The translations under genes and the position numbers were made by a program. Shown in pieces: positions 22,114 through 58,518 of a stretch of DNA of 64,000 nt. The notes under the pieces were generated by a model. It was not told the DNA's origin. It was given only the letters and a program-made list of their open reading frames with translations, and made no database searches. Source of the DNA: Patescibacteria group bacterium (GTDB taxonomy: Bacteria; Patescibacteriota; Microgenomatia; UBA1400; PJMF01); NCBI GenBank assembly GCA_016861205.1, contig BOKX01000001.1:831835-895834 (forward strand), in the 5' to 3' direction. Each line of letters opens with the position of its first letter. The stretch's first letter is position 1.

Positions 22114-22281
22114 ATCCTAAGGGTATCACACCCAACCTGGGAATCGAAGTTTACAAAGTGGCACAAACCAGAACGTCAAACTGTTTTTGTCTTGCATTTG
22201 AGGGTGCCTTTTTAGCACCCGAAAACGCAAGGCTAAAAACGTTCTATTCGAACTTTGCCATCTGTGCGGTACAATACAGGG

Positions 22282-23547
22282 GTGAAACGAAAACTAGTAT
22301 TCGCGGTTTTATCTTTCTTGGTTGCAACCTGCATTTCAGTGAGACTTCCCTCAACTGCACAAGCACGAGGAAATGTGTCTTGTTCTAACATCAGTCAGGT
22401 CACAACCAGTTTTGGCAACGGAGTGGGTTTTGGCGGCAATCCTGAAATCCCCATTGGGGTGCAGTACCCTCCTTTTGATGTCATCTTAGAAGGTCAGTTT
22501 GCGAATGGAGATGAGTATCGCTTGGAACAAGTCCAAGATGCCATAGGACCCGATAATACGTTCCATACAACAGACGACGTTCGATCTGAACCCGGATCAA
22601 ATGGCAACACGAGAATCTCTTTTACCAACCGAAGCGAGCCAGATTGGTACACCGCAGGAGGAGATACTGACGTTGGGTGGACACAAGGACGCTGTTTGCA
22701 GTTCTACATTAAATTGCGGAATACCACGACAAATCAGGATGTTTGCCGTGTTGGCTCCTATCAACTCTGCGAGCCTGAATCTGATGACCTAATTTGTGAC
22801 AATTTTTATGTCTATCAGAATAACTCTCAATCCCAACCCACGAACGGTTGTTTTTCAACCGGGCGCACCTACTGGACACTTTCAAACTTGAGATACACCG
22901 ACGGAACACTGTATAACGGCGGCGATGGCGACGTTGAAATTCAATTCACTGGAGGCGGTGTCGCTGGTAATGACCAAGAACCAACTGTTAGAGATGGTGC
23001 TGCATCAGGCAGCTTTCAACTTGATGGTGACGATATCGGAACCAATCAATATGTTCGACTGACAGTTAATGGTCGTGAGATCTGCACCGCTAACCCAGAG
23101 CCATTTGTTCCGGCTGAAGCTTGTTCAGATGAGCAACGAGGTGAACCAATTGCTAATGCCCCACCAGTTAACGGATCTGGTTCAAATGTAGGCAGCTTTG
23201 TTCTTTGCGAGCAGATCCCAAATACAACAGCCCGCGAAGATTGCCGGCACTGTGATGAGGACCTGCATGGCGTCTGGACTGCAGTTGGTTGCATCTCTCG
23301 GCAACCTACCAGCATGATTCAAACCCTGATGGGGATTGGTCTGTCACTGGCAGGCGGGGTTTGCTTGCTCATGATGTTGGCTGCTGGCTTCACCTTTTCC
23401 ACCAGCCAAGGCGATCCCAAGAAAACAGGTCAAGCCAAAGAAATGATGACTTCTGCCATTGTCGGTTTAGTGTTTATACTTTTGTCAGTCACTCTGTTAC
23501 AGTTTATTGGAGTATCACTGCTCGGCATACCTGGGTTTGGTAGTTAA
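22282..23547 (+). CDS. Pilin-like (VirB2/TrbC-like two-helix module) protein fused to an approximately 350-aa N-terminal ectodomain
   Basis: GTG start gives a KRK signal peptide. The C-terminal 90 aa (MIQTLMGIGLSLAGGVCLLMMLAAGF..SQGDPKKTGQAKEMMTSAIVGLVFILLSV) shares the helix-charged-loop-helix motif of the tandem paralog array at 28.2-32.1 kb. Confidence 0.5.
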   Translation: MKRKLVFAVLSFLVATCISVRLPSTAQARGNVSCSNISQVTTSFGNGVGFGGNPEIPIGVQYPPFDVILEGQFANGDEYRLEQVQDAIGPDNTFHTTDDVRSEPGSNGNTRISFTNRSEPDWYTAGGDTDVGWTQGRCLQFYIKLRNTTTNQDVCRVGSYQLCEPESDDLICDNFYVYQNNSQSQPTNGCFSTGRTYWTLSNLRYTDGTLYNGGDGDVEIQFTGGGVAGNDQEPTVRDGAASGSFQLDGDDIGTNQYVRLTVNGREICTANPEPFVPAEACSDEQRGEPIANAPPVNGSGSNVGSFVLCEQIPNTTAREDCRHCDEDLHGVWTAVGCISRQPTSMIQTLMGIGLSLAGGVCLLMMLAAGFTFSTSQGDPKKTGQAKEMMTSAIVGLVFILLSVTLLQFIGVSLLGIPGFGS

Positions 23548-23553
23548 CCACAT

Positions 23554-24258
23554 ATGAAAAAAATCGCCACAGTACTAGTAACCCTACTCTTACTGGCAGT
23601 GACCGCCCAACCAGTATCTGCACAGTGGAGTTGTGTTCCAGCCGAAGACAGCAACCCGCAGTGTCCTTTAACTGGTTTTTCATACTATTGTGGTAACCCA
23701 AGCCCTGTTGATCCAAGTACTGGTCAACCATACCCCGAAGGCAACCCATATCATGAGGGACCACTGTGTTGTAACAACCAAGCTTCTTGTGAGAGTACTT
23801 TCCCCATAGTTCATTGCTGTATTAACGGAACTACACAACCCAACATGAACACTCAGGATTGTTTGGCACAAGGTGGCTCACCTCTTGCGTGTGAGGATAA
23901 TAACAACCCGAATCAACCTGGCAACTACAACTTACTCAACGGCCCCTCATCAGATGACTTCAACGCCCTCAATCCACTCCGACGCCCCGATGCTGACTCA
24001 GCGATTGCTGACCAATTCGCCACCCCCGCTGGCTTGATTTCTCGGGTGTTGCTGTTTGCCTTCCCAATTGCCGGCATTTTAATGTTGCTGATGCTTGTCT
24101 GGGGTGGTTTTGAAATCTTGTCAGGCGCCACCAACAAAAAATCACTCGACTCTGGCAAGAACCGCATCAAGGCGGGCATCGCTGGTTTTATGCTCTTGTT
24201 CACTTCCTACTGGATCGTCCAAGTCATCGAAGTGGTGTTGGGAATTCAAATTTTCTAA
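23554..24258 (+). CDS. Pilin-like (VirB2/TrbC-like) protein with Cys-rich N-terminal extracellular domain
   Basis: Signal peptide, a Cys-rich approximately 120-aa region, then the paralog motif ...LMLVWGGFEILSGATNKKSLDSGKNRIKAGIAGFMLLFTSYWIV. Confidence 0.5.
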   Translation: MKKIATVLVTLLLLAVTAQPVSAQWSCVPAEDSNPQCPLTGFSYYCGNPSPVDPSTGQPYPEGNPYHEGPLCCNNQASCESTFPIVHCCINGTTQPNMNTQDCLAQGGSPLACEDNNNPNQPGNYNLLNGPSSDDFNALNPLRRPDADSAIADQFATPAGLISRVLLFAFPIAGILMLLMLVWGGFEILSGATNKKSLDSGKNRIKAGIAGFMLLFTSYWIVQVIEVVLGIQIF

Positions 24259-27601: not shown

Positions 27602-28162
27602 CTAGGTGCTTAGTTCAACAAAGTAGTAACGAAAATCTCGCCTAGCTCGAAACAGATCTGACTCAACTGCCTTGATTGTTCTCCCCAGCTCTTCTGCGAT
27701 ATCTTTCACTGACTTGTTGTCAACGTACTTCATAAGCAGAAGTTCTTGAGCATCCGCTGACAGACGAGCAAAAACTGTTTTTACCTTTTCAGCTACTTCG
27801 TGGGCATCAGAAATGTCACTCACACTCACCAACTCAGTCAGTGGCAGGGCTGCAATGGCTTTTTTGGCGTAGCGCTTGCGATAGTAGTCAGCCACTTCGT
27901 GCCGAGCGATGCCAAGCATCCAGCTCCACAAACTTGACTCCCCGCGAAAAAGGGGCAAGTGTTTCAAGCAATTCAGAAAAACTTCTTGGGCCACCTCTTC
28001 GGCATCGGCGGGGTTGGAAATTCGTTGACCCAGCCAGCCTATGAGCCGCTGGCTATACAGCTGATACCACTCTCGGACTGCCGACGATGAACCGTCACGC
28101 AGTTCAGCCAGAAGGTGCTGTTCACTCTCTGTCAGTCTCGGCTGGGTGTTGTACGATGGCAT
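27602..28162 (-). CDS. ECF-type RNA polymerase sigma-70 factor
   Basis: Region 2 VFLNCLKHLPLFRGESSLWSWMLGIARHEVADYYRKR and region 4 KSVKDIAEELGRTIKAVESDLFRAR. Transcribed divergently from the pilin-like array. Confidence 0.75.
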   Translation of the reverse strand: MPSYNTQPRLTESEQHLLAELRDGSSSAVREWYQLYSQRLIGWLGQRISNPADAEEVAQEVFLNCLKHLPLFRGESSLWSWMLGIARHEVADYYRKRYAKKAIAALPLTELVSVSDISDAHEVAEKVKTVFARLSADAQELLLMKYVDNKSVKDIAEELGRTIKAVESDLFRARRDFRYYFVELST

Positions 28163-28187
28163 AGCCTTAGGGGTATAATAGCACGCA

Positions 28188-28550
28188 ATGCTAACTCTTC
28201 TCGCCCAAGATACAACCACCACTACCGGCTGTGATCCGAGCGCCGGTGCCATCAATCTCGGGGACTGTTATGTCCTCAACCGAGAAACTGGGACCACTGT
28301 TAGTTCAGTTTACCAACAACCAGCTGATCTGGTGAATGTTCTTATTCGCAATATTTTTGTGGTGGGCGGCGTCATCTTGTTCGGCAGCTTGTTGTTTGCA
28401 GGTTTCAAGTTCATTCAATCTGGTTCTAAGGGTAAAGAAGAGGCTAAAACAATTGTTAAAACCGCTGCCATTGGCTTCATTGTCATGTTTGCCGCTTTCT
28501 GGATTGTGCGAATTATTCAAGTGATTATTGGCCAAAATCTGATCCAGTAG
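28188..28550 (+). CDS. VirB2/TrbC-like pilin family protein (paralog 1 of tandem array)
   Basis: Helix 1 NIFVVGGVILFGSLLFAGFKFIQSG, charged loop SKGKEEAKT, helix 2 AAIGFIVMFAAFWIV. Confidence 0.5.
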   Translation: MLTLLAQDTTTTTGCDPSAGAINLGDCYVLNRETGTTVSSVYQQPADLVNVLIRNIFVVGGVILFGSLLFAGFKFIQSGSKGKEEAKTIVKTAAIGFIVMFAAFWIVRIIQVIIGQNLIQ

Positions 28551-28600
28551 AACTTGAACCAGTAGCTTGTCAGATCAAGAAAAGTGATACAATACAGCGT

Positions 28601-28990
28601 ATGCGCCTCGCACAAGCCTTAACCCCCACCGACATCATTGGTAGTGTGACTCCTCCTCCTGGCGTAACCGCCTATGACGCTCAAGCTGGTGGCATTGGTC
28701 TTATTTTGTTTCTTTCAACTTTGATTCGCGTTTTTACTGTAGTCGCAGGTTTGTACGTCATGGCTCAGTTCTTACTGGCCGGTTGGCAGTACATCACCGC
28801 CAACGGTGATACCGGTGTTAATGCTAAAGTTCGAGAGCGCATTACCATGAGTCTGATCGGTATTGTCATCATCGTGGCTTCGTACACAGTGGCCGGTATG
28901 ATTGGCTATCTGTTCTTCGGCGATGCTTCGTTCATTCTCAATCCTAATATTCAAGGACCGACCGCTCCAGCGCCGGTAATAACACAATAG
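28601..28990 (+). CDS. VirB2/TrbC-like pilin family protein (paralog 2)
   Basis: ...LYVMAQFLLAGWQYITANGDTGVNAKVRERITMSLIGIVIIVASY. Confidence 0.5.
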   Translation: MRLAQALTPTDIIGSVTPPPGVTAYDAQAGGIGLILFLSTLIRVFTVVAGLYVMAQFLLAGWQYITANGDTGVNAKVRERITMSLIGIVIIVASYTVAGMIGYLFFGDASFILNPNIQGPTAPAPVITQ

Positions 28991-28993
28991 TTT

Positions 28994-29401
28994 ATGTCAA
29001 ACTTCATCGCCCAAGCCGCACCTGCTAACCCATTTGGTAATGAGGGCATCGCTCCGGTCAGTCCCCGCTTTGAAGTTGACCTGAGTAGTGCTGAAGCAGC
29101 AAATGCCAGTTCTCTGAGCAATCTAGAGTTATTTATCTCACAACTAATTGGGTTTTTAACTGTCGGTGCCAGTCTCTTTTTCATCATTTACTTCATCATG
29201 GGCGCCTTCAAGTGGACCACTGCCGGTGGCGATAGTGGCAAAGTGCAAAAAGCCCGTGACCAGATGATTCAAGGCGCGATGGGCCTGATTTTGATTGTGG
29301 CTGCCTACAGCGTGATGGGTATCATCGGAACTGTCCTGGGTGTTGAAATCCTACAACCGGCCAATACGTTACGCAGTATCGTGGGACCAATCCAGAACTA
29401 A
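28994..29401 (+). CDS. VirB2/TrbC-like pilin family protein (paralog 3)
   Basis: ...IIYFIMGAFKWTTAGGDSGKVQKARDQMIQGAMGLILIVAAY. Confidence 0.55.
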   Translation: MSNFIAQAAPANPFGNEGIAPVSPRFEVDLSSAEAANASSLSNLELFISQLIGFLTVGASLFFIIYFIMGAFKWTTAGGDSGKVQKARDQMIQGAMGLILIVAAYSVMGIIGTVLGVEILQPANTLRSIVGPIQN

Positions 29402-29402
29402 T

Positions 29403-29918
29403 ATGAAAAAACTAACTCACTTCCTGACTCGTTCCAGCCTAGTTTTAGCGGTAGTGGTGGCAACATTAAGCTTTGCAACCAAAGCTCAGGCGCAGTTTAC
29501 CAACTTCGCCGAGTGTTTGGCTAATGGTTACTCAGATGTTGAGTGCCAAGATATCATGAGTCGACAGGGTGGCATCACTAATCCAGCCATCGGTCAGCTT
29601 GGTAACGACGCCGCTGGCGCCAGCGATGGCAGCCTGTTTGTTGGCTACTTCATCACTCTTTGGCGAGCCCTCATCGTAGTTGGCGGCCTAGCCGTGGTTT
29701 ACTTCTTTATTTGGGGTGCTCTGCGCTGGATTCTGGCTGGTGGTGACGCTGGCAAAGTTCAAAAAGCTCGTGACCAAATCATCCAGGCTATTATCGGTAT
29801 GATCCTGCTGGTTAGTTCGTTTGTGATTATCGGCTTCGTCAGTCAATTGGTGTTTGGTGAAAACTTTGATATTCTTAACTTGACCCTGCCTCAAGCCGGG
29901 CAAAGCACAACCAATTAA
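29403..29918 (+). CDS. VirB2/TrbC-like pilin family protein (paralog 4)
   Basis: Start at the internal Met MKKLTHFL, which gives a signal peptide. ...FFIWGALRWILAGGDAGKVQKARDQIIQAIIGMILLVSS. Confidence 0.55.
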   Translation: MKKLTHFLTRSSLVLAVVVATLSFATKAQAQFTNFAECLANGYSDVECQDIMSRQGGITNPAIGQLGNDAAGASDGSLFVGYFITLWRALIVVGGLAVVYFFIWGALRWILAGGDAGKVQKARDQIIQAIIGMILLVSSFVIIGFVSQLVFGENFDILNLTLPQAGQSTTN

Positions 29919-29919
29919 T

Positions 29920-30468: not shown

Positions 30469-30562
30469 GTAAAAAACTTGTCTAAGCACGCCAGCAGCGG
30501 GGTTTGACTTGAAGAAAACAACAAACTATAATACTATTATTGAGTAAGCAAAAGGAGCAATA

Positions 30563-30967: not shown

Positions 30968-30990
30968 GAGTTTACACTTTGAACTTGAAA

Positions 30991-31017: not shown

Positions 31018-31045
31018 TCTCAGCACTAGGCAGTATAATATCGAC

Positions 31046-48836: not shown

Positions 48837-51800
48837 ATGCCGGTTCAGCACAGTCATATGGTGGACAGCCCAACCACAACCAGCGCTCCGTCCTCAACTC
48901 GCACCAAACAGCAAGTCTGGTTGAAGCGGCTGCAGATTCCTGCCATCAAAGATGGTCAACGCGACCAGTTCCTGACTGCTCTTCAGCAAATCATTACCTC
49001 GATTACCAACACCAACTTGAGCAAGGTCACGATCGTCGACCCGTTCCGACTAACGTTCGCCGGCAGCACTCGACCGGCTCAAAGTTACAGTGTTGAGTTC
49101 AAAAACCGCCCCACCGAAGGTGACACCGATCAAGCGGTGATCTCGGCCCAAACCGAGAAAATGTACCTCGATGACGTGGCGGTGCTCTTGCTGGACGTCG
49201 CTAACTGGATTGAGGCTGCATTTCCCAAGACTCCAGCGGCCAACCGATTTGCCAAAAACGACACGCTCGATAATGTACGTGAACTAGTGACCAACTCGTT
49301 CGAAGGGATTGAGCCTGATTTTGCCAAACTCAACACCAAACGAACTGAGCTGCTGAACTTAGCTGCTGAAATCAGCGAATCTCTGGAGAGCTTGATTACT
49401 TCCGCTGGCGAAACCACCAGTGGCTATGACAGTTTGCGGCCGTTGGTTGCAGAGCTGGAGCGTGACCCTGCTCAAGCTTTAGCCTTGTGGAGCAGCGATA
49501 TCTTGGTTTTGGCGCAAGCCGTTCGGGACACCAAACAGCTCCCTACCCAAGCCGTGGTCTCGGCTCAGCCGCTCAGCACCGTCCGGGCTGTGCACGGCAA
49601 CCGTTTTAGTCCGCCAGAAGTTCGGCTGGTTTTACACACCTTTAGTAAAGCACTGCAAACAATCTTCAAAGATAGCGACGGCACCAAGAAGTACCTCAAC
49701 CGATACTTAGCCAAAGAGAACCAAAATCGCCCAATCAACGCCATTCTCGATCCTCGAGATCTCGAGTTGTTATTGAGTGAGTCATCGCCATTTTTCTTCC
49801 GACCTGAGCTCAGCGCCGCCGATCTAGCTTTGGCTAGCGAACAGGAACTGCGTGATAGCGATATTCAACAAGCCCGCGCTTTTTACACTTTCTTTACCAA
49901 AAAAGAAGTCTTTGGTCGCATCTTCGGCAAAGAAACCCTCCCCGAACTAGCTGGTGAAGCAGGGACTGAGGCAGCTGCTGAGGCTGGTGGCAGTGAGGAG
50001 ACCAAGGAGGAAAAACCGCCCGAGACCACTACCCCGACACTCATCCAGTTCTCAACTGCCCTCAATGAAGTCAACATTCGCATCACCAATGCCATTATTG
50101 ATGAGCTTAACCTCAGAGGAATTGGGTCGGCTCGTTTGGAGCGCCTCGTTTGGCAACAACTCTTCAGCGACATGCTGCAAAGACTTGAGGGACGAGCCTA
50201 CTTTGATCTCCAGTCTGCAACTCTCGATCCACAAGGCAAGGTGTATGACGCTGCTACTCGCTCGGTCGTGAGCAACCTGTTCGAAATTTGGGCTGGGCAG
50301 TACGTACCGGTGGCAGTGGCCACTTTTATGCAGCGGATTGGCCAACCTGCTACCTATCGCCAAACTATCTTGTCGTGGGCCGAGACAGAAGTTGCTGTTT
50401 TTGAGGGTAAAATGGAACTGGCTCCCGAAGCCGTCCCCGTCAACAACGCCACTGTCCTACTCGCCCTCAGCAAATTAACTCAACTGGTTCAAACGGGCGA
50501 CCGCGGTATTCTTCCTGGTCGGGCTGAAGACTTCAACAGCAGTTGGTGGTCCCAGCTGCCACTGGCTGAGCGGCGGCGGCTGACGGCACTGGTGCTTGGT
50601 CCCACCATCGGAACAGGCGCTGAAAAAGTTCGGTTAGCGAACGCCCTGGCCATCAACTACTTTGGTAGCACCGACATGGGCTTTGATGGCTTTGACCCCA
50701 CCCAACTGACTGGTGGGCTGCGCGATCAATTCGTCCCGATCCAAAACTTGTTCCTCCAAAACATTGAGACAACTTTGGCTGAGCTGAACTACGAAGACTT
50801 TGTTCGCTGTCTCAACAATCCGACCTATGCTCGGTTGTTCGTCCTCAATCGAATTCGATCGAGGTTAAATCAAGATCCAAGATTCCAAGCTTCAGTCCAA
50901 GCTTTCTTACAGGCCCGCACCCAAGAACAGCGTCAAGCTGCCGCTAAAGCTCTGGCCGGTGACGCCGCGGCTGATGGCATTTTGGCCCTGCAACTTGACC
51001 AAAGTGTTGATAGTTTATTGGTCACCTTCCAGGATGAAACGAGCGCCAAACGGTTTGTTGACAGCTTGACACCCACAGAGATAGCCCGTCACTTCGGTCG
51101 CAGCCTCAGTGAAGAACAAGCCGCCCGGTTCAAAAAAGAACTCAACAAACTACTCAGTGAGCGCTACAAAACTGAAAATGCACTGTTGAATCAGCGGCTG
51201 CGTGGTGAAGGTTTGAGTCGTCAATCTGGTAACGTCGGTCTTTTCACGTACGATGACGACACCGACGCGGATGAACGCGAACAACTCCAAGATAGTCTTG
51301 ATCGCTATCGCGAAGTCCTGCGAACAGTCAATGTCCGGACCGTTATCTCGGCTGCTCACACTCCCTACTCATATGTGGTTGGCCAAACAGAACCGACCAC
51401 CGCTAACGAGGAGGCGATTGCCGAGTGGCGATACCGGCAAGCATTTGTCCAAAATCTTTGGAAAGAGCTTGAGTTGGCTGGCCTAACTGAAGCCGCCAAA
51501 GCCGATCCCAACTTTACTCCCTCGGTTCTCATCCAAGAACTTAATTCGAATCGTAAAAAGACCCTCAGTGCCAAAACCCTTGGTGGTCGAGCCAAAAACT
51601 ACTTCCACCGGCTACGCGGTGGCAAAGAAGAGACAGTTGGAAACGCGGTCCAAAAAGCCACAACTGGCGCTGCTGAAATGGCAGCTGCCCAAGCTGCCGG
51701 CATGGCCGTAAATGCTGCTGTGCCTGGATTGGGAACGGCTTTAAACGCCGTCAGTACTGGCCTTGAGCGACTTGGCATCAAGAAGCGCTATCAAGCCCTT

Positions 51801-53207
51801 GGTGGCTTGATGATTGTGCTCAACTTTCCGTTTACCTTCTTAGGAGCTGGGTTAGGAGCTGCCATCGGTGGCTTTTTCTTTGGACCTGCCGGCGCTAGCA
51901 TTGGTGCTGGCATCGGTGGCGGCATTGGTTTCGCAGCTGATGTTGTCTACAAAACTGGTGCCGATCTCTTGGGTGGCGCCAAAACTGCCTCGGCAGCTGG
52001 TCAAGCTTCGCTTGGCGAAGCCCAGAGCGTCCTCGGCGGGACCCCAGCGGCTGCCACACCCGCAACCACCACTGGAGCTGCCGCAGCAGCCACTCGAGTT
52101 CCGTTTATCGCTACCCCAACTGCACCAGTGGTCATTGCTACTGTGGGAACGGCTGTTGTTTCGACAGTCACCATCATGGCCATCCAGAACTCATTGATCG
52201 ATCCCCTGACCATTACTCCACAAGCTACCGAGTACTCGCAGTATGTTGAAATCAGCAAAAAAGTTTTACCAGCCCAGATCGAAAACAATCAAGCCACTGA
52301 TATTACCTATACCATTGAAATTACCCCGCGAGAAGACTACGTGATTGTGCCTGGTGTTGATCAAACCACCGACACGTTTTCATACCTAGGCGGCGATGCC
52401 CTCACCCTCCCCGACCAAACAGAAGCAGTCCGCCAGCAACTCGGCAGTGATCCTATTACTGGCAAAAAAACCATTACGTATACTGTGCCCGCTGTCAGCG
52501 GCGTAGATGTTCAGGTCAACAACAAGTTCCATTTTGTGTTCCAAGTTCAAGGCATTACCGGCGACGTCCAGGTTCTCGACGTGATTGGTTCATTAACAAT
52601 TGGTGATCCGGAGATTGGGTGTTTCACCTTTGCGGAAGGTGGTCAGACTTTTGGAGGTGGTGAGTTTGCCATTCAATCCAAAGCCTGGAATGATAAAGAC
52701 CGAACCCAAGTCTTGTCAGCCTTCAACCGCCGAGCCGGCACCAACTCTAACTATATTAGTTTATTGTGTGAGAAGGGCCCCGTCGAACTGTATCGACTCC
52801 CCGGTGGTGGTGGCGGTAGTTGTAACGGGGAATGTGGTGGTTGGGCACCAGCTGCCTACGGTGGCAACAAAGTTGGTATTTATGACCCCGGCGTTCAGTA
52901 CAGTATAGATAGTACTGAATACACCCTAGTTCATGAACTCGGCCATGCTATTGATTATCGCAACGGCAACCTGCGCACCAACTTTAATACCATCTGGTCA
53001 GGTCGCTGTTATACCTATCCATTCCCCGCTGTTTGTTCTTCTGGTAGTGGCGAGGCTTTCCCCGAAGCCATGGTGCTATACGTCATCTCAAAGACATATC
53101 GCTTCTCGATCAATGACGCACCTCAGTTATTCGACTTTCAAGGTCGGTACCAAGCTGAGTATAATTGGATGCGAGACAACATTTTTGGCGGACAAGAGTT
53201 TAATTAA
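48837..53207 (+). CDS. Very large hypothetical protein (1456 aa) with C-terminal HExxH zincin-like motif, candidate effector/toxin
   Basis: No signal peptide. Internal Gly-zipper hydrophobic segment GGLMIVLNFPFTFLGAGLGAAIGGFFFGPAGASIGAGIGGGIGF. The C-terminal region has Cys pairs and TLVHELGHAIDY (HExxH). Confidence 0.55.
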   Translation: MPVQHSHMVDSPTTTSAPSSTRTKQQVWLKRLQIPAIKDGQRDQFLTALQQIITSITNTNLSKVTIVDPFRLTFAGSTRPAQSYSVEFKNRPTEGDTDQAVISAQTEKMYLDDVAVLLLDVANWIEAAFPKTPAANRFAKNDTLDNVRELVTNSFEGIEPDFAKLNTKRTELLNLAAEISESLESLITSAGETTSGYDSLRPLVAELERDPAQALALWSSDILVLAQAVRDTKQLPTQAVVSAQPLSTVRAVHGNRFSPPEVRLVLHTFSKALQTIFKDSDGTKKYLNRYLAKENQNRPINAILDPRDLELLLSESSPFFFRPELSAADLALASEQELRDSDIQQARAFYTFFTKKEVFGRIFGKETLPELAGEAGTEAAAEAGGSEETKEEKPPETTTPTLIQFSTALNEVNIRITNAIIDELNLRGIGSARLERLVWQQLFSDMLQRLEGRAYFDLQSATLDPQGKVYDAATRSVVSNLFEIWAGQYVPVAVATFMQRIGQPATYRQTILSWAETEVAVFEGKMELAPEAVPVNNATVLLALSKLTQLVQTGDRGILPGRAEDFNSSWWSQLPLAERRRLTALVLGPTIGTGAEKVRLANALAINYFGSTDMGFDGFDPTQLTGGLRDQFVPIQNLFLQNIETTLAELNYEDFVRCLNNPTYARLFVLNRIRSRLNQDPRFQASVQAFLQARTQEQRQAAAKALAGDAAADGILALQLDQSVDSLLVTFQDETSAKRFVDSLTPTEIARHFGRSLSEEQAARFKKELNKLLSERYKTENALLNQRLRGEGLSRQSGNVGLFTYDDDTDADEREQLQDSLDRYREVLRTVNVRTVISAAHTPYSYVVGQTEPTTANEEAIAEWRYRQAFVQNLWKELELAGLTEAAKADPNFTPSVLIQELNSNRKKTLSAKTLGGRAKNYFHRLRGGKEETVGNAVQKATTGAAEMAAAQAAGMAVNAAVPGLGTALNAVSTGLERLGIKKRYQALGGLMIVLNFPFTFLGAGLGAAIGGFFFGPAGASIGAGIGGGIGFAADVVYKTGADLLGGAKTASAAGQASLGEAQSVLGGTPAAATPATTTGAAAAATRVPFIATPTAPVVIATVGTAVVSTVTIMAIQNSLIDPLTITPQATEYSQYVEISKKVLPAQIENNQATDITYTIEITPREDYVIVPGVDQTTDTFSYLGGDALTLPDQTEAVRQQLGSDPITGKKTITYTVPAVSGVDVQVNNKFHFVFQVQGITGDVQVLDVIGSLTIGDPEIGCFTFAEGGQTFGGGEFAIQSKAWNDKDRTQVLSAFNRRAGTNSNYISLLCEKGPVELYRLPGGGGGSCNGECGGWAPAAYGGNKVGIYDPGVQYSIDSTEYTLVHELGHAIDYRNGNLRTNFNTIWSGRCYTYPFPAVCSSGSGEAFPEAMVLYVISKTYRFSINDAPQLFDFQGRYQAEYNWMRDNIFGGQEFN

Positions 53208-53230: not shown

Positions 53231-53863
53231 ATGGCGTTCAGTTCAACTCAACCCAATCCCAACACTCCGCTCCAGCCGATCCCGTGGTGGAGAGAGTATT
53301 GGTGGATACTCGGCTTGATTGGTGTTGCTGTTCTCCTCGTACTGGCATTTCTCATCCAATTATTTGTAGCTGCTCGTTACCCCGTTAACCAAGAGAACAC
53401 CTGGAATGCCATCACTCCCGGTTACACAACTTTGTTTCAGGTTGAGAGTCGCCTGGGACAACCCATCAGTAAAACTAGAACGGCAGAAGGTACAAAAGTT
53501 ACCTATACTTCCCCCTTTAAAGCAATTCCGCATGAAGTCATCGCCGATCAACAAAATAAAGTCGTGTTTATCCGTGAACTGTTACCCGCTGATAGCACTC
53601 TCACTCTCGAAGAAGTTAAGGCAGAGTTCGGTGAACCAGATATGTCTTTGTTCCACACCACTATCGCCATCGGGCAACAAGCTCATGTTTTCTTGGCAAA
53701 AGGAGTTGTAGCCGTGGCAAATTTGAGTGATGGCCGAATTGAAGAAAAGTGGTACTTTGAACCCACCACCGCTGACGCATTTATGAATTCGTGGGGTAAA
53801 GACCTCAGTGAAGATGGGGCTGGCCCTGAAGAGTTTCCTGCTCCGCCTGAAGCCCAGCTCTAG
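53231..53863 (+). CDS. Hypothetical membrane-anchored protein
   Basis: N-terminal TM helix WWILGLIGVAVLLVLAFLIQLFV, then a soluble domain. Confidence 0.45.
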   Translation: MAFSSTQPNPNTPLQPIPWWREYWWILGLIGVAVLLVLAFLIQLFVAARYPVNQENTWNAITPGYTTLFQVESRLGQPISKTRTAEGTKVTYTSPFKAIPHEVIADQQNKVVFIRELLPADSTLTLEEVKAEFGEPDMSLFHTTIAIGQQAHVFLAKGVVAVANLSDGRIEEKWYFEPTTADAFMNSWGKDLSEDGAGPEEFPAPPEAQL

Positions 53864-53911: not shown

Positions 53912-55054
53912 ATGCGAGAACATCCGATCCCTCAGGATGTGGTTGGTTATCGGTTTCACATTGTCGGTAACATGACCATCAAACAGTTCGCGGAAATCGG
54001 CGCGGGCTGTATCGTGGCGTTCCTCATTTACACCACCAACCTGTTCGACTTAATTAAGTGGCCCTTGATTGGTATCAGTGTGGCCATGGGTGCTATGGCG
54101 GCTTTTGTGCCGTTTGAAGAGCGCCCGCTCGATCACTGGTTGATCACGTTCATCAGAGTCATGTACAAGCCCACTCTGTTTTACTGGCGTCGGGAACCAA
54201 AAGTGCCGGAACCGTTTCTCTACCAACCCAACCAAGTCAAAAATACTACAACCGATCTCGACTTGAGCCCTGCGCGTCGCCAACGCATCAAAGAGTATTT
54301 GGGCACACTCAACCAGGGACAAGCTCCCGACCAACTCGAACTGATGGAACAGTCACGACTTCAAGAGATCATGATGGCGTTTCAAACCACACAAGGCGTG
54401 GGCTTGATTAAACAAGGACACCGAGCTACCCTGACCGTTCGCACACACAGTCTTAAGTCACTGCCCACTGACACCACCACAGCCCAGCCAGCACCAGCTT
54501 CGGTCACCGTTTTTGAAACACCCGCCTCCTCTGGGCTACCCACCAGCACCTCTTTGGCTGCCAACAAACAGCTTCTGGGCGTTCATCAGGTGGCCACTTC
54601 CATTGAGATTCCCGAGGCACCAACGGTAAACTTGCAATCTTCCCAACTCACCACAGATGAGGCAACAGCCATCAATGCAACCCAGGCACCTGCTGATGAG
54701 CGCGCCTATACTGATGTGGCAGCAACCCCAGCAATCGTGGGAACGGCTTCACCTGCCGAGTTGAACGCGAACCTACCCTTTCCCACGCGCCCATCCGAAC
54801 CCAACAAACTGGTAGGAATGGTGTTGACTCCCACAAACGAACTTATCAACGACGCAATTGTTGAAATTGGCACCCCGCAGGGGCTCGTGGCTCGAGCGGT
54901 AAAAACGAACGCACTTGGCCAATTCTTTGTCACCACCCCCTTGCCGTCAGGTGAGTACACCATCAGCGTTGATAAAGAAAACTATCAATTCTTGCCCCAA
55001 TCACTCAGCTTGACCGGTCAGGTCGTCGATCCAATCGAGATTCGCAGTCTGTAA
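53912..55054 (+). CDS. PrgI/VirB3-like T4SS membrane protein fused to Thr/Pro-rich linker and carboxypeptidase-regulatory-like beta-sandwich
   Basis: N-terminal approximately 100 aa (PQDVVGYRFHIVGNMTIKQFAEIGAGCIVAFLIY...WPLIGISVAMGAMAAFVPFEERPLDHW) match the PrgI-family two-TM pattern. The C-terminal GMVLTPTNELINDAIVEI...GQFFVTTPLPSGEYTISVDKENY resembles a CarboxypepD_reg domain. Confidence 0.5.
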   Translation: MREHPIPQDVVGYRFHIVGNMTIKQFAEIGAGCIVAFLIYTTNLFDLIKWPLIGISVAMGAMAAFVPFEERPLDHWLITFIRVMYKPTLFYWRREPKVPEPFLYQPNQVKNTTTDLDLSPARRQRIKEYLGTLNQGQAPDQLELMEQSRLQEIMMAFQTTQGVGLIKQGHRATLTVRTHSLKSLPTDTTTAQPAPASVTVFETPASSGLPTSTSLAANKQLLGVHQVATSIEIPEAPTVNLQSSQLTTDEATAINATQAPADERAYTDVAATPAIVGTASPAELNANLPFPTRPSEPNKLVGMVLTPTNELINDAIVEIGTPQGLVARAVKTNALGQFFVTTPLPSGEYTISVDKENYQFLPQSLSLTGQVVDPIEIRSL

Positions 55055-55129: not shown

Positions 55130-56407
55130 ATGAGTACTTCACACAGCCTAGAGAGATTCCGCTATAATGATGCTGTCATGCCGACGACACCGTCTGTCCA
55201 GTCCACCACCCAACAGTTTTTGGATATCTACGATATCACCAACGACCTCTTGATCATGAAGGACGGCAGTACCGCCTTAATTATCACGGTGAATGCCATT
55301 AATTTTGGTCTGTTTGCTGAAGAAGAACAGGATGCGGTTATTTACTCGTATGCTAGCTTACTAAACTCGCTGAACTACCCCATTCAAATTGTCGTTAAAT
55401 CCCAAACCAAAGACGTGACTGCTTACCTTCAGCTACTTAAAGATCAAGAAGACGAAACTCAAGATATGGAAAAGAAGGAGCGCATCAAGCGCTACCGCAT
55501 GTTTGTCGGTGACCTCATTCATGAGGGCAATGTTCTCGATAAAAAGTTCTATGTGGCGATTCCCGCCACGGCGCTGGAAATGGGCTTGCTCCCACCCCAG
55601 ACCGTCATTCCTGGTGTAAAAAAGGTGGACATTTCATCAGTTGAACGCAGTGTCATCTTGCAAAAAGCTCGCGACATTCTCGAACCAAAGCGAGATCACT
55701 TGATTGGCCAGTTTGCCAGAATTGGTTTGCAGGCTCGCCAATTGACCACTCAAGAAATCATTCAGCTGTTTTACACTAGTTACAATCCTGAGGCCGCCGA
55801 AGGTCAGCAAATTACTGACACCCGGAGTTACACTACTCCCTTAGTGAATGCTCAAATGCAGAGTTCCGGTCTCCAGCCCGCCGCAACTCAACCAGTACCA
55901 ACTACCGTACAAGGAGTCGACCCTATGTTAGCGACTACCACCCCTCCTACCAACCAAGCCCCTGGCAACACGCCCACCCCGGCCCCAATGCCTGAGACTG
56001 CGCCAGCTATGACGCCGCCGGTTGCACCAGTTCCAGTGGCACCAGCTGCGCCAATCGTTAGTGACAACCCTGCGGTGCCCACGCCACCTCCAGCACCAAG
56101 CATGCCACCAGCTATGCCACCGGCTAGTCCCGCACCCACCCCAATCCCAACTCCGGTCCCAGCCCCGATGAGCCCACCAGCTCCAACTCCAACTCCAGCT
56201 CCAGTGGCACCGCCAGTGGTCCCTACCATTGAAGCGCAAGCTGACATTGACTCAGCGCTTAAAGAGTTGGGTGGCGCTACTCCAGCGGCACCAGCTGCTG
56301 AGAGCAGTTCCGGCATGGCCGTCCCACCCAGTACCCCACCGGGACCGGCCCCAGCAGACAATCCAGCGGCTGGCGCGGGTGCTATGCCACCCCTACCAGA
56401 GATTTAA
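55130..56407 (+). CDS. T4SS-locus hypothetical protein with N-terminal globular domain and Pro/Ala/Thr-rich tail
   Basis: The N-terminal 240 aa (DLLIMKDGSTALIITVNAINFGLFAEEEQDAVIYSYASLLNSLNYPIQIVVKSQ) recall the N-terminal domain of VirB4/TrbE-type ATPases. The C-terminal 180 aa are low-complexity P/A/T. Confidence 0.45.
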   Translation: MSTSHSLERFRYNDAVMPTTPSVQSTTQQFLDIYDITNDLLIMKDGSTALIITVNAINFGLFAEEEQDAVIYSYASLLNSLNYPIQIVVKSQTKDVTAYLQLLKDQEDETQDMEKKERIKRYRMFVGDLIHEGNVLDKKFYVAIPATALEMGLLPPQTVIPGVKKVDISSVERSVILQKARDILEPKRDHLIGQFARIGLQARQLTTQEIIQLFYTSYNPEAAEGQQITDTRSYTTPLVNAQMQSSGLQPAATQPVPTTVQGVDPMLATTTPPTNQAPGNTPTPAPMPETAPAMTPPVAPVPVAPAAPIVSDNPAVPTPPPAPSMPPAMPPASPAPTPIPTPVPAPMSPPAPTPTPAPVAPPVVPTIEAQADIDSALKELGGATPAAPAAESSSGMAVPPSTPPGPAPADNPAAGAGAMPPLPEI

Positions 56408-56451
56408 TACGACTAGCATCATCCCAAGCTGGTGACGTACAATAAGAAGTA

Positions 56452-58518
56452 ATGCCTAATTTGCTGGCTAGCCTGCCACTACCGTTCGCCAAGAAACCTG
56501 CCGCCGAGACAAATCCCGAGGCGGCCCAGGCTGAACGTGATATGGAACGCCTGAAAGAGTTCTCGCGTGGCCTGGTAACCATCCAAGACATTATTGCGCC
56601 TGAGGCTATTGAGGTTGATTTTACCTACCAAAAAATCAACTCCACTTATACGCGCACGCTGTTCGTGGCTGGCTATCCCAGAACCGTGCCGGCTAACTGG
56701 TTGTCGCCATTAATCAACTTTCCTAACCAGCTCAACATCTCAATGTTCATCTTTCCGGTTGATGTGAAAGACGTGTTGGACAACCTAAAACGCAAAATTA
56801 CCGAGATGGAGGCGGAAATTCAGTCCGATATCCGGCAGGGCAAGATTAGCAACATCAATACTGAGGTCAAACTGGAAGATGCGCGAGTGATTCGGGAACA
56901 GCTGGCCAAAGGCTCCGAGCGGTTTTACCAACTCGGCTTGTACGTAACCATCCAGGCAAAGAGCAAAGAGGACCTCGAACGTGTTACTAAAAGTTTGCAG
57001 TCTACACTCGGCTCGCTTTTGATTGTGTCCAAAAAGGCCACCCTCCAGATGGATGAGGGCTTCAAAACCACCCTCCCAATGGGCTTGGACAAACTGCTGG
57101 TAACTCGCAACATGGACACCACGTCGCTGGCGACAACCTTTCCCTTCACCTCGTCAGAACTCACCATGGAAACAGGAATCATGTACGGCATCAACGAGCA
57201 CAATGATTCGCTGGTGATTTTTGATCGCTATAAGATGGAAAACGCCAACATGGTGGTGTTTGCCAAGTCTGGTGCAGGTAAGTCATACACCGTGAAGCTC
57301 GAGATTTTGCGCCAACTCATGTTTGGCGTGGAAGTCATTGTCCTTGACCCCGAACACGAGTACGAAGATCTGTCCAAATCAGTGAATGGCGAGTACATTA
57401 ACTTTACTTTCAATTCTGAAAAGAAAATCAACCCTTTTGACCTGTCGGCCCTCTATGAAGAAGGTGAAAATGAGTTGGGTCAAAAAATTATCTCGCTGCA
57501 TGGCTTGTTAAAAGTCATGCTGGGCCAGATGACCCCCACTCAAGATGCTCTACTCGACCGTGCCCTGGTAGCTGCTTACAAGGCCAAAGGCATTACTCCT
57601 GACCCAGCCACCCAAACCAATGAACCACCACTCATGGAAGACCTGTACAAGGCTTTGATTGGCATGGAAAACAACGAAGCTAATGACATCGCCGCCCGGC
57701 TGGAGAAGTTCATCACTGGTTCGTTCCGCGGTATTTTTGACCATCCATCGAACTTTGACATCACCAATGAGTTCACCGTCTTTTCCGTCAAGGACATGGA
57801 AGAGGAGCTGCGGCCGATCGCCATGTTCATCGTGCTGGACTTTATCTGGACTCGCGTCAAAAAGAACCTTAAGAAACGTTTGTTGGTCATCGATGAGGCC
57901 TGGTACTTCATGAAACACCCCGACTCGGCTTCATTTATTCACTCGATGGCCAAACGGGCTCGCAAGTACTACCTTGGCATCACCACCATCACCCAAGACG
58001 TTGAGGACTTTTTGCATAGTGACTACGGCAAAGCCATCGTGACCAATGCTTCCATTCAATTCTTGATGAAACAGTCCACTGCGTCCGTTCCCATCTTGGC
58101 CGAAACATTTTATTTGTCTGAAGGTGAGCGACAGCTTTTGGTTTCAGCTGATGTCGGAGAAGGAATCTTTTTCGCCGGCCAGAATCATGTGGCGCTGCGG
58201 GTGGTAGCCAGTGACGAAGAACACCAAGTCATCACCACCAATCCTGAAGAAATTCTGCGCCGACGGGCTACCGAACAGGCTGCTGCCGGAGCCACAGCTC
58301 CAGTCGCCTCTCCACAATCACCCAAGATTACACCGAGTTGGATGGCGGCCCCCGCAACAAGCCCTGCCGCTGGCTCCGCCCCGACCAATCAAGCGGGAGC
58401 TGCCTCTGTTGGCCCCAGTCCTGGAACGCCCACGGCAGCTACCAACGCTACCGAACAACCCGCCTCCCCGTTTAGTCGCTACTCCATCGATAACTACGTT
58501 CCCCCGAGCGAAACCTAG
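56452..58518 (+). CDS. VirB4-like type IV secretion ATPase (Gram-positive PrgJ/TcpF type)
   Basis: N-terminal TRTLFVAGYPRTVPANWLSPLINFPNQLNISMFIFPVD pattern. Walker A VVFAKSGAGKSYTV. Walker B LLVIDEAWYFM. Pro/Ala-rich C-terminal tail. Confidence 0.75.
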   Translation: MPNLLASLPLPFAKKPAAETNPEAAQAERDMERLKEFSRGLVTIQDIIAPEAIEVDFTYQKINSTYTRTLFVAGYPRTVPANWLSPLINFPNQLNISMFIFPVDVKDVLDNLKRKITEMEAEIQSDIRQGKISNINTEVKLEDARVIREQLAKGSERFYQLGLYVTIQAKSKEDLERVTKSLQSTLGSLLIVSKKATLQMDEGFKTTLPMGLDKLLVTRNMDTTSLATTFPFTSSELTMETGIMYGINEHNDSLVIFDRYKMENANMVVFAKSGAGKSYTVKLEILRQLMFGVEVIVLDPEHEYEDLSKSVNGEYINFTFNSEKKINPFDLSALYEEGENELGQKIISLHGLLKVMLGQMTPTQDALLDRALVAAYKAKGITPDPATQTNEPPLMEDLYKALIGMENNEANDIAARLEKFITGSFRGIFDHPSNFDITNEFTVFSVKDMEEELRPIAMFIVLDFIWTRVKKNLKKRLLVIDEAWYFMKHPDSASFIHSMAKRARKYYLGITTITQDVEDFLHSDYGKAIVTNASIQFLMKQSTASVPILAETFYLSEGERQLLVSADVGEGIFFAGQNHVALRVVASDEEHQVITTNPEEILRRRATEQAAAGATAPVASPQSPKITPSWMAAPATSPAAGSAPTNQAGAASVGPSPGTPTAATNATEQPASPFSRYSIDNYVPPSET

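What the first reader, a model, noticed from the sequence alone, without database searches (positions are those of the whole stretch)
22255..58518. Gram-positive-type T4SS-like island abutting the replication origin
Between the SpoIID gene and dnaA lie the pilin-like family, a 1100-aa secreted protein, a VirB6/TrbL-like channel protein (36920), a PrgI/VirB3-like protein (53912), a VirB4 ATPase (56452), and multiple giant signal-less proteins. A VirD4/TraG-like coupling ATPase sits about 50 kb away (4764-7100). No relaxase, integrase or transposase is visible. The system therefore looks like a chromosomal, non-conjugative protein-secretion or attachment T4SS rather than a mobile element. The combination of VirB2-like pilins with PrgI/PrgJ-type (Gram-positive) components is atypical.
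Basis: partly seen in the sequence, partly recalled or inferred. Interest (0 to 1): 0.8.

Follow-up and report, generated by a model that had tools for sequence, protein, structure and literature searches.

The report
Patescibacteria-type chromosomal type IV secretion locus
The genes are real, but this is the chromosomal, pilus-bearing, relaxase-free type IV secretion system next to dnaA that was already described for ultrasmall CPR/Patescibacteria bacteria in 2023-2025, so it is a known kind of system and not a mobile island.

Summary
Between SpoIID (20374-22113, -) and dnaA lie:
- ten paralogous VirB2-like pilin-domain genes (Pfam PF18895);
- a 1100-aa secreted protein;
- a PrgI/VirB3-like protein, a TrsD-like VirB4 N-domain protein, and a Firmicute-type VirB4 ATPase (NCBIfam CD1110 family, 388 bits against a cutoff of 325).

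A weak VirD4-like ATPase lies about 50 kb away. No relaxase, integrase or transposase is encoded in the window.

The interpretation (chromosomal, non-conjugative) is supported, but "island" is wrong. Housekeeping genes interrupt the region. Composition matches the flanks except at 38-44 kb. The gene order of the parts sampled recurs in related Patescibacteria MAGs.

All headline features are published: Wang et al. 2023 (PMC10633639), Quinonero-Coronel et al. 2025 (PMC12102498) and a 2025 review (PMC12857230).

Small additions from this work:
- a divergent VirB6 family that sequence profiles do not detect;
- pilin paralogs that are ancient positional orthologs, not recent variants;
- an ECF sigma gene usually divergent from the array;
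- fast-evolving giant proteins at conserved positions.

Novelty: already known. Interest: about 0.3.

The parts
22255..23547 (+). 430-aa protein with a signal-peptide-like N-terminus, a ~330-aa Cys-rich ectodomain and a C-terminal VirB2-like pilin hairpin (candidate adhesin-pilin fusion)
   Evidence: PF18895 33.1 bits against a cutoff of 26.6, residues 355-418. Membrane segments at 13-33, 354-383 and 394-428. The C-terminus is 53% identical to the syntenic gene in L083.
23554..24258 (+). 234-aa protein with a Cys-rich N-terminal domain and a C-terminal pilin hairpin
   Evidence: PF18895 29.4 bits. 45% identical to the syntenic gene in L083.
27602..28255 (-). ECF-type sigma factor, divergent from the pilin array (true start probably near 28162)
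   Evidence: Sigma70_r2 and Sigma70_r4_2. An ortholog occupies the same divergent position in L082, L084, L085 and L086 but not L083. A regulatory role is inferred only.
28188..32091 (+). Array of eight VirB2-like pilin genes: 28188-28550, 28601-28990, 28994-29401, 29340 (probably 29403)-29918, 29920-30468, 30563-30967, 31046-31621, 31657-32091
   Evidence: PF18895 hits, hairpin alignment and paralogy. Positional orthology with five related loci: orthologs 36-66% identical, paralogs 29-42%, except the 30563/31046 pair at 65-70%. That pair is 72% identical at the nucleotide level.
32099..35401 (+). 1100-aa secreted or anchored giant protein. Its C-terminal ~170 aa form a rare conserved domain (SESGG...DFGC) that may be lysozyme-like.
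35755..36780 (-). Conserved 341-aa cytoplasmic protein of unknown function, always found between the giant secreted gene and the VirB6-like gene
   Evidence: 41-51% identical to positional counterparts in all five loci. No Pfam hit, and only a faint NCBIfam hit to a DHH-type diphosphatase (E 0.066).
36920..38614 (+). VirB6-like polytopic membrane protein (probable start 36944)
39605..46152 (-). Three minus-strand genes for proteins of 1369, 394 and 396 aa with no signal peptide or membrane segment. They evolve fast but keep their position and are candidate substrates or accessory proteins.
   Evidence: No Pfam hits. The 1369-aa protein is 23-24% identical to positional counterparts in L083 and L085. 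No relatives in phages, plasmids, or viral and metagenome pattern scans. GC 0.45 and tetranucleotide z about 3 over 38-44 kb.
46491..48470 (+). 659-aa cytoplasmic protein of unknown function, upstream of the core operon in some relatives
   Evidence: Weak tblastn and BLASTP matches at the same position in 7 loci and in L086. No Pfam hit. A terminator-like hairpin follows at 48500-48529.
48837..53207 (+). 1456-aa protein with a ~980-aa cytoplasmic region, Gly/Ala-rich membrane segments and a ~330-aa extracellular domain carrying an invariant HExxH...GEAFAE zincin-like motif
   Evidence: Membrane segments. C-terminal domain 30-43% identical in about 12 loci, with invariant H237, E238, H241 and E277. 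Only sub-threshold peptidase hits (ATLF, M57, M91). The L083 counterpart carries Peptidase_M23 instead.
53231..53863 (+). 210-aa bitopic protein with an N-terminal membrane anchor and a ~150-aa ectodomain. The architecture resembles VirB8/PrgL, but the fold was not tested.
   Evidence: Membrane segment 21-53. Conserved next to PrgI in 11 loci at 34-38% identity. No PDB or Pfam support.
53912..55054 (+). PrgI/VirB3-like membrane protein fused to a long linker and a C-terminal Ig-like (CarboxypepD_reg-like) domain
   Evidence: PF12666 33.0 bits against 27, residues 5-87. PF13620 E 1.1e-5, below its cutoff. Conserved over its full length two genes upstream of virB4 in 70 of 80 loci.
55130..56407 (+). 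TrsD-like protein, equivalent to a detached VirB4 N-terminal domain, with a Pro-rich tail
   Evidence: NF041427 TrsD E 3.9e-6. The VirB4_plasma model matches at positions 103-236, E 1e-9, collinear with the VirB4 match at 292-893. Precomputed PF26593 TraC-like. Found in 75 of 80 loci.
56452..58518 (+). VirB4 ATPase of the MPF_FATA/Firmicute type
   Evidence: NF045971 388.5 bits against 325, covering model positions 179-734 of 752. P-loop_TraG 1e-23. PDB 4AG5 2e-49. Walker A GAGKS and Walker B VIDEAW are visible in the sequence. 70-86% identical in 80 Patescibacteria MAG loci.
4764..7100 (-). VirD4/T4CP-like membrane ATPase about 50 kb from virB4. Its link to this system is uncertain.
   Evidence: PF10412 30.9 bits against 20.5 and DUF87. 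All NCBIfam T4CP models are below cutoff. DotL 4.7e-4. Two N-terminal membrane segments.
58557..60515 (+). dnaA (probable start 58656) and the AT-rich dnaA-dnaN spacer, which is the likely oriC
   Evidence: Bac_DnaA 2e-66. DnaA-box-like 9-mers at 58558-58578 and 60265-60422. Spacer GC 0.39-0.40. GC skew is negative up to about 61 kb.

Best explanation
This is the vertically inherited chromosomal type IV secretion system typical of Patescibacteria (CPR). Relatives of this genome are labelled Pacebacteria, Woesebacteria or Microgenomates.

Parts:
- Membrane core, derived from monoderm conjugation machines: a VirB4 ATPase with its N-domain split off as a TrsD-like protein, a PrgI/VirB3 anchor and a divergent VirB6 channel subunit.
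- A set of about seven differentiated VirB2-like pilins plus two pilin-adhesin fusions.
- Large envelope-anchored proteins with hydrolase-like heads: a zincin-like head here, M23 in a relative, and possibly a lysozyme-like domain.

Inferred mechanism. The hydrolases open the cell wall. VirB3, VirB4 and VirB6 assemble in the membrane, and VirB4 extracts pilins from the membrane to build a heteromeric pilus or stalk that contacts the host cell. The apparatus then moves proteins or other molecules between epibiont and host. It does not conjugate DNA.

Shown here: the gene identities, the VirB6 fold, the synteny and the lack of mobility genes in the window.
Shown elsewhere: the essentiality of the homologous system in Southlakia epibionticum.
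Inferred: pilus formation, substrate identity, direction of transport, the ECF-sigma control, and any role for the giant cytoplasmic proteins or the distant T4CP-like ATPase.
For: Component identities.

VirB6 fold.

Split VirB4: the TrsD-like and VirB4 proteins cover the VirB4 models collinearly and without overlap.

Taxonomy and vertical inheritance:
- VirB4 relatives at 70-86% identity lie almost entirely in MAGs titled Patescibacteria, Pacebacteria, Paceibacterota, Woesebacteria or Microgenomates (many records carry other or uninformative labels).
- PrgI-TrsD-VirB4-DnaA-DnaN-YidC-Jag is syntenic in 63-80 of 80 loci.
- The SpoIID / pilin fusions / UppS...NUDIX / ECF sigma / pilin array / giant / ~300-aa / VirB6 / giant layout recurs in L082-L086.

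Pilins: positional orthology shows old, differentiated paralogs.

Against mobility: no relaxase, integrase or transposase, no composition anomaly apart from 38-44 kb, and no flanking repeats.

Selection: across the same loci VirB4 has a median identity of 77%, against DnaA 54%, DnaN 41% and YidC 60%. This points to strong purifying selection, with the caveat that the loci were chosen by VirB4 similarity.

Literature:
- The homologous system, including its pilins, is essential in S. epibionticum and lacks a recognisable relaxase and coupling protein (PMC10633639).
- A phylum-wide survey reports the same repertoire, the position near dnaA and arrays of 2-11 pilins (PMC12102498).
- A review proposes the system as a conduit for exchange with, or uptake from, the host (PMC12857230).
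Against: - No experiment exists for this lineage.
- No pilus built from PF18895 proteins has been seen in any Patescibacterium.
- VirB6 is supported only by fold. Foldseek E-values are 0.015-0.07, TM-scores 0.24-0.47, and no sequence profile hits.
- No VirB8 homolog was found, and the VirB1-like role of the giant proteins is unproven. The lysozyme-like test was inconclusive and the zincin assignment rests on a motif.
- The T4CP-like ATPase is weakly assigned and distant.
- The pilin/VirB6 cluster and the VirB3/B4 cluster are about 15 kb apart. Their joint function is inferred from family knowledge and co-conservation.
- A relaxase elsewhere in the 1.15-Mb genome could not be checked.
Confidence: 0.8

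Rival explanations
1. It is an integrated conjugative element, or a decayed one. On this reading the T4SS genes arrived as a mobile island and transfer, or used to transfer, DNA.
For: VirB4 belongs to a family named for a conjugative transposon (CD1110 of CTn2). A T4CP-like ATPase exists in the window. GC and tetranucleotide composition deviate at 38-44 kb. A degenerate tRNA-like gene with a partial inverted copy lies at 48.5-48.7 kb.
Against: No relaxase, integrase or transposase was found, and no flanking direct repeats. Housekeeping genes are interspersed. Gene order, including those housekeeping genes, is conserved in relatives whose DnaA is only 50-76% identical (median 54%). The survey found relaxases in only 103 of 3,035 Patescibacteria genomes.
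Confidence: 0.03
2. It is an uptake machine. The T4SS and pilus would import DNA or other host molecules into the epibiont, as the ComB system of Helicobacter or the Ced system of archaea do, rather than export effectors.
For: VirB4 also matches the CedB and CedD DNA-import ATPase models, though far below cutoff. Patescibacteria lack nucleotide and amino-acid synthesis and depend on hosts. The review suggests uptake from the host. ABY1-class loci co-localise with comF, recG and radA.
Against: The CedB/CedD hits are generic VirB4 homology. No com or recombination genes lie next to this locus. In S. epibionticum the comEC mutant is viable, whereas the T4SS is essential, so DNA uptake for transformation is not the essential role. 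Direction of transport cannot be read from sequence.
Confidence: 0.15
3. It is only an attachment organelle. VirB4, VirB3 and VirB6 would serve solely to assemble an adhesive VirB2-type pilus, and nothing would be translocated.
For: There are ten pilin-domain genes, including two with large Cys-rich ectodomains that look like adhesins. The T4CP is distant and only weakly assigned. T4CP was not essential in S. epibionticum.
Against: Patescibacteria already use type IV pili for adhesion. Conserved giant proteins without signal peptides sit inside the locus. Some T4CP-less T4SSs, such as Ptl and Brucella VirB, do secrete proteins.
Confidence: 0.1
4. The locus is two unrelated systems that happen to lie close together. 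The pilin array, giant secreted protein and VirB6-like protein (22-39 kb) would be independent of the PrgI-TrsD-VirB4 operon (49-58.5 kb).
For: About 10 kb of fast-evolving genes on the opposite strand separate them. VirB6 is supported by fold only. The VirB6-like gene lies within 10 kb of virB4 in only 2 of 80 loci.
Against: VirB2 pilins and VirB6 have no known function without VirB4. This is established T4SS knowledge, and the R388 structure places VirB6 at the base of the stalk (hits 7o3v and 8rtd). The 1439-aa gene at the downstream edge of L082 matches the giant gene that precedes PrgI in the same organism's VirB4 locus, L010 (BroJett025), which suggests the two clusters are also near each other there. 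In Saccharibacteria the pilins and the core lie in one essential cluster.
Confidence: 0.07

Closest known systems
Patescibacteria T4SS (Southlakia epibionticum ML1 SEML1_0006-0019; the Patescibacteria VirB4 clade of Quinonero-Coronel et al. 2025)
   Same: MPF_FATA-like VirB4 with a TrsD-like protein. PrgI/VirB3, VirB6 and an array of sequence-divergent VirB2-like pilins. Peptidase and possibly lysozyme-type envelope proteins nearby. No relaxase, a T4CP that is absent or distant, a chromosomal location and a position next to dnaA/dnaN/rnpA.
   Different: A different lineage (Pacebacteria/Microgenomates-like rather than Saccharimonadia). The genes are spread over about 36 kb with housekeeping genes in between. 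VirB6 is undetectable by sequence profiles; the survey reports VirB6 as scarce in Microgenomatia. PrgI lies next to VirB4, whereas the survey found that association in only 22.6% of Microgenomatia VirB3 homologs. The hydrolase-like head is zincin-like.
Monoderm conjugative T4SS, class MPF_FATA (pCF10 Prg/Pcf, pGO1 Trs, CTn2 CD1110)
   Same: VirB4 passes the CD1110-family cutoff. PrgI and TrsD homologs are present. No outer-membrane core (VirB7/9/10) is present.
   Different: No relaxase, no adjacent T4CP and no PrgB-type adhesin. It has VirB2-like pilins, which MPF_FATA systems lack. It is not on a mobile element.
Diderm VirB/Trw systems (Agrobacterium VirB, R388 Trw)
   Same: VirB2-type hairpin pilins and a VirB6-fold subunit. 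TrwI is the best structural match.
   Different: No VirB5, B7, B8, B9, B10 or B11 was detected. Sequence similarity to VirB6 is nil (12-16% identity in the structural alignments). TrbC/VirB2 Pfam hits are only sub-threshold.
VirB2 paralog arrays of Bartonella and Anaplasma
   Same: Several tandem, sequence-divergent VirB2 genes.
   Different: Here each paralog has its own ortholog at the same position in distant genomes. That argues for fixed, distinct structural roles rather than antigenic variation.

Membership tests
Patescibacteria-clade T4SS | VirB4 ATPase of MPF_FATA ancestry | tested here: met
   NF045971 388.5 bits against a cutoff of 325, ahead of TraC-F (184) and VirB4_CagE (106). Best PDB match is a Firmicute VirB4, 4AG5, 2e-49. 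Relatives at 70-86% identity are almost all titled as Patescibacteria-group MAGs. No tree was built.
Patescibacteria-clade T4SS | TrsD-like protein (VirB4 N-domain homolog) next to virB4 | tested here: met
   55130-56407: TrsD E 3.9e-6, VirB4_plasma positions 103-236 E 1e-9 (both below the whole-protein cutoffs), PF26593 TraC-like. Adjacent in 75 of 80 loci.
Patescibacteria-clade T4SS | VirB3/PrgI homolog | tested here: met
   PF12666 33.0 bits against 27.
Patescibacteria-clade T4SS | VirB6 homolog | tested here: inconclusive
Patescibacteria-clade T4SS | Array of VirB2-like pilins (PF18895/PF04956) | tested here: met
   Ten genes, eight at or above the gathering score, within or beside the published range of 2-11 per array.
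Patescibacteria-clade T4SS | No relaxase associated; chromosomal; near dnaA | tested here: met
   No relaxase in 64 kb. The virB4 stop lies 38-137 nt before dnaA. The rest of the genome could not be searched.
Patescibacteria-clade T4SS | Required for host-dependent growth | not testable with these tools
   Shown only for S. epibionticum.
Integrative conjugative element / conjugative T4SS | Relaxase (MOB) and oriT | tested here: not met
   No relaxase-family Pfam hit in any ORF of the window.
Integrative conjugative element / conjugative T4SS | Integrase or transposase and flanking att repeats | tested here: not met
   No recombinase domains (same calls). No direct repeats of 25 nt or more bound the region.
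Integrative conjugative element / conjugative T4SS | Patchy presence or foreign composition | tested here: not met
   Synteny is conserved in relatives. Tetranucleotide z is below 1.4 everywhere in the region except 38-44 kb.
Diderm VirB/D4 (MPF_T) T4SS | Outer-membrane core VirB7/9/10, plus VirB5, VirB8 and VirB11 | tested here: not met
   None of these families appears in the Pfam or NCBIfam scans of the region's proteins.
Type IV coupling protein (VirD4/TraG/TrwB) | Membrane-anchored P-loop ATPase matching T4CP profiles | tested here: inconclusive
   4764-7100: PF10412 30.9 bits against 20.5, matching only residues 367-463. TraG-D_C E 0.0048, below its cutoff. All NCBIfam T4CP models are far below cutoff. 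DotL 4.7e-4, and HerA hits are of similar strength.
VirB1-type cell-wall hydrolase (SLT/lysozyme-like) | Lysozyme-like fold with a catalytic Glu | tested here: inconclusive
VirB8/PrgL | Bitopic protein with an NTF2-like ectodomain | not tested
   The 210-aa protein (53231-53863) has the right topology and position.

The most novel reading that the evidence does not exclude
The roughly seven positionally conserved pilin paralogs, together with the two pilin-adhesin fusions, build a heteromeric VirB2-type pilus or stalk with fixed major, minor and tip subunits. This structure would be transcribed under the divergent ECF sigma factor. The fast-evolving giant signal-less proteins held at conserved positions inside the locus would be its translocated, host-targeting substrates. 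On this reading the locus is a complete host-manipulation organelle, with a divergent VirB6 family that current T4SS profiles miss.
Probability: 0.2. Interest if true: 0.6.

Novelty: already known. Interest (0 to 1): 0.3.

Why it matters
The Patescibacteria T4SS is the only T4SS known to be essential for its bearer's growth. It is also the only monoderm-type T4SS with VirB2-like pilins. What it transports, and in which direction, remains open.

This locus adds no new kind of system. It does supply testable details for a poorly covered lineage:
- a candidate for the VirB6 that sequence profiles miss in Microgenomates-like genomes;
- evidence that the pilin paralogs are old and non-redundant, which argues against simple antigenic variation;
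- a candidate regulator, the ECF sigma factor;
- candidate substrates or hydrolases, the giant proteins.

Tried and rejected
1. Sequence-profile detection of VirB6. Pfam, NCBIfam, PDB phmmer and a 59-sequence profile against the PDB all found nothing. Only fold comparison worked.
2. A word-indexed homolog search with the whole 1456-aa protein returned only the query itself, probably because low-complexity Gly/Ala stretches dominated the candidate list. Homologs were recovered from the fetched loci instead.
4. Zincin domain. Only sub-threshold Pfam and PDB hits were found, so the assignment rests on the invariant HExxH...E motif.
5. VirB8 test of the 210-aa protein. No profile hits.
6. The 1369-aa protein had no match in phages, plasmids, or the viral and metagenome pattern scans.
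7. The AFDB Foldseek library was unavailable.
8. Promoter and terminator scans gave counts equal to shuffled sequence and were not used.
9. The ICE/island hypothesis was rejected (see rivals).
10. An Rfam scan at gathering thresholds found no RNA family in the window.

Full report
**1. What is in the window**

I built a gene map from the ORF list and translations and scanned every long ORF with Pfam. The key ORFs were also scanned with NCBIfam.

The flanks are ordinary chromosome:
- a MacB-type ABC exporter, a Ser/Thr kinase, Lgt, a GH3 hydrolase and Pth;
- glycosyltransferases, an ATP-dependent DNA ligase, Fic and RecF;
- SpoIID at 20374-22113 (-);
- at the right end, DnaA (58557-60263), DnaN, RnpA, YidC and Jag/KhpB.

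DnaA-box-like 9-mers cluster just before dnaA and in the AT-rich dnaA-dnaN spacer. GC skew is negative up to about 61 kb. The region therefore really does abut the replication origin.

**2. Checking the observation**

All named genes exist.

Ten ORFs end in the PF18895 'T4SS_pilin' domain, eight of them at or above Pfam's gathering score. They are mutually homologous. They share two hydrophobic helices joined by a short basic loop, which is the VirB2/TrbC topology.

- 53912-55054 carries an N-terminal PrgI domain above threshold and a C-terminal Ig-like domain.
- 56452-58518 passes the curated cutoff of the Firmicute CD1110 VirB4 family. Its best solved relative is the Thermoanaerobacter VirB4.
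- The gene just upstream, 55130-56407, matches TrsD and the N-terminal part of VirB4 models. The match is collinear with the VirB4 match, so VirB4 is split in two.
- The distant ATPase 4764-7100 reaches the Pfam T4CP threshold only on a short P-loop stretch and fails all NCBIfam T4CP models. It is T4CP-like, but weakly so.

The 564-aa polytopic protein at 36920 has no sequence-profile support at all. It belongs to a family with more than 600 hits. The 120 listed have no Pfam domain, and the few that are named are Patescibacteria hypothetical proteins.

An AlphaFold model of it (pLDDT 76) gives the following:
- The five best Foldseek hits in the PDB are all TrwI/VirB6 of R388, though with weak scores.

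**3. Not an island**

- Genes for UppS, an amino-acid-kinase-family protein and a NUDIX protein interrupt the region. So do an ECF sigma factor, a conserved ~340-aa protein and a tRNA-like gene.
- Tetranucleotide composition is indistinguishable from the flanks except at 38-44 kb, where z is about 3 and GC is 0.45.
- No long direct repeats bound the region.
- No relaxase, integrase or transposase is encoded anywhere in the 64 kb.

A scan of species-representative genomes with VirB4 returned 303 relatives, and the best 80 (70-86% identical) were kept. Nearly all that carry an informative title are labelled Patescibacteria, Pacebacteria, Paceibacterota, Woesebacteria or Microgenomates. In those loci PrgI-TrsD-VirB4-DnaA-DnaN-(RnpA)-YidC-Jag is syntenic in 63-80 of 80. 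The 1456-aa and 210-aa genes precede PrgI in a subset.

I also fetched the neighbourhoods of five homologs of the VirB6-like protein. They show the rest of the layout conserved as well:
- SpoIID (seen in L085) and two pilin-fusion genes (seen in L083 and L085);
- UppS...NUDIX, or the NUDIX gene alone where the locus is cut;
- the ECF sigma factor, present in five of six loci counting the window;
- an array of six to eight pilins;
- a giant secreted protein, present in five of six;
- a ~300-aa gene on the other strand;
- the VirB6-like gene;
- a giant gene plus one of 400-600 aa on the other strand.

This is an old, vertically inherited arrangement.

**4. Comparison with the literature**

Wang et al. 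2023 (PMC10633639) showed that an apparent T4SS (SEML1_0006-0019) is essential for epibiotic growth of Southlakia epibionticum. It resembles Gram-positive conjugative systems, has an essential series of pilins, and lacks recognisable coupling and relaxase proteins.

Quinonero-Coronel et al. 2025 (PMC12102498) surveyed 3,035 Patescibacteria genomes. They found:
- a monophyletic VirB4 clade nested in MPF_FATA;
- TrsD, PrgI/VirB3 and VirB6;
- VirB2-like arrays of 2-11 genes, especially in Microgenomatia and Saccharimonadia;
- T4CP mostly far from virB4;
- relaxases in only 103 genomes;
- virB4 near dnaA, dnaN and rnpA.

The 2025 nomenclature review (PMC12857230) calls these systems unique among monoderms. 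It speculates that they form a pilus conduit for exchange with, or uptake from, the host.

Every headline point of the finding is therefore already published.

**5. What this analysis adds**

All of the following are modest additions.

a. *A sequence-divergent VirB6 family.* The survey reports VirB6 as scarce in Microgenomatia and suspects extreme divergence. The 564-aa family found here is a concrete candidate.

b. *The pilins are positional orthologs.* Each of array positions 1-4 and 8 has a reciprocal best hit at the corresponding position in most or all of five related loci. Ortholog identity is 36-66%, while paralogs within the genome are 29-42% identical. Only the 30563/31046 pair is a recent duplicate. 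Paralog-specific motifs are visible. This argues for fixed, non-redundant subunits rather than antigenic variation.

c. *Pilin-adhesin fusions.* Two further pilin-domain proteins carry variable Cys-rich ectodomains.

d. *Hydrolase-like heads.* The giant protein upstream of PrgI is membrane-anchored and has a conserved extracellular HExxH...E domain. Its counterpart in one relative carries Peptidase_M23 instead. The giant secreted protein ends in a rare domain with an invariant Glu that may be lysozyme-like, but that test was inconclusive.

e. *Fast-evolving giant proteins.* The minus-strand giant proteins keep their position while diverging to the limit of detection. That pattern would fit host-interaction substrates, but there is no direct evidence.

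f. *Strong conservation of VirB4.* Across the same loci VirB4 has a median identity of 77%, against 54% for DnaA and 41% for DnaN. The loci were selected by VirB4 similarity, so this comparison is biased upward.

**6. Mechanism**

Shown here: the component identities, the VirB6 fold, the synteny and the absence of mobility genes from the window.

Inferred from T4SS knowledge and the cited papers:
- the hydrolase-like proteins open the wall;
- VirB3, VirB4 and VirB6 form the membrane machine;
- VirB4 feeds pilins into a stalk or pilus;
- the apparatus mediates exchange with a host cell rather than conjugation.

The substrate and the direction of transport are unknown. An uptake role and an adhesion-only role remain live alternatives.

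**7. Verdict**

The system is an already known kind, with interest of about 0.3.

Noticed in passing
window 48621-48689 (-) and 48537-48575 (+): The tRNA-Arg(CCG) called by ARAGORN is not found by Rfam at gathering thresholds. Its only match is 27.4 bits to the tRNA-Sec model. It has no bases between the acceptor and D stems and a 4-nt D loop. A partial inverted copy of its D and anticodon arms lies about 100 nt away. It could be a degenerate or unusual CPR tRNA, or a remnant.
   Followed up: partly
window 58558-58578 and 60265-60422: DnaA-box-like 9-mers (one mismatch each) cluster just upstream of dnaA and in the AT-rich dnaA-dnaN spacer (GC 0.39-0.40), which is the likely oriC. If so, the plus-strand T4SS core operon is transcribed toward the origin, head-on to the leftward replication fork.
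   Followed up: partly
window 27602-28255 (-): An ECF sigma factor gene is divergent from the pilin array here and in four of five related loci (L082, L084, L085, L086). The gap to the first pilin ORF is only about 25 nt if the probable start at 28162 is right, so any promoters must overlap coding sequence.
   Followed up: partly
window 38000-44000: This is the only compositionally deviant stretch (GC 0.45, tetranucleotide z about 3). It covers a 264-aa gene and the 1369-aa gene. The 1369-aa protein has no detectable relatives apart from weak positional counterparts.
   Followed up: partly
window 53912-55054: The PrgI/VirB3-like protein is 380 aa rather than the usual ~100. It has a Thr/Pro/Ala-rich linker and a C-terminal CarboxypepD_reg-like beta-sandwich. 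The full length is conserved in 70 of 80 related loci.
   Followed up: partly
window 35755-36780 (-): A conserved ~300-340-aa cytoplasmic protein (41-51% identical in five relatives) always lies on the opposite strand between the giant secreted gene and the VirB6-like gene. It has only a faint resemblance to DHH-type phosphoesterases and its function is unknown.
   Followed up: no
window 17817-18209 (+): A small membrane protein with DUF5654 (E 4e-17) lies between the Fic and NAD(P)H-hydrate dehydratase genes.
   Followed up: no
window 14824-16596 (-): The window encodes an ATP-dependent DNA ligase with all three domains. No NAD-dependent LigA was seen in the window.
   Followed up: no
window 30504-30532: A near-consensus sigma-70 promoter (TTGACT-17-TATAAT, 11 of 12 matches) lies inside the pilin array, just before the pilin gene at 30563. 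This suggests an internal transcription start.
   Followed up: no
L083 18794-21575; L084 16565-18580: In relatives, the giant protein at the position of the 1456-aa gene carries Peptidase_M23. In L084, one of the minus-strand genes downstream of VirB6 carries a DnaJ domain.
   Followed up: no
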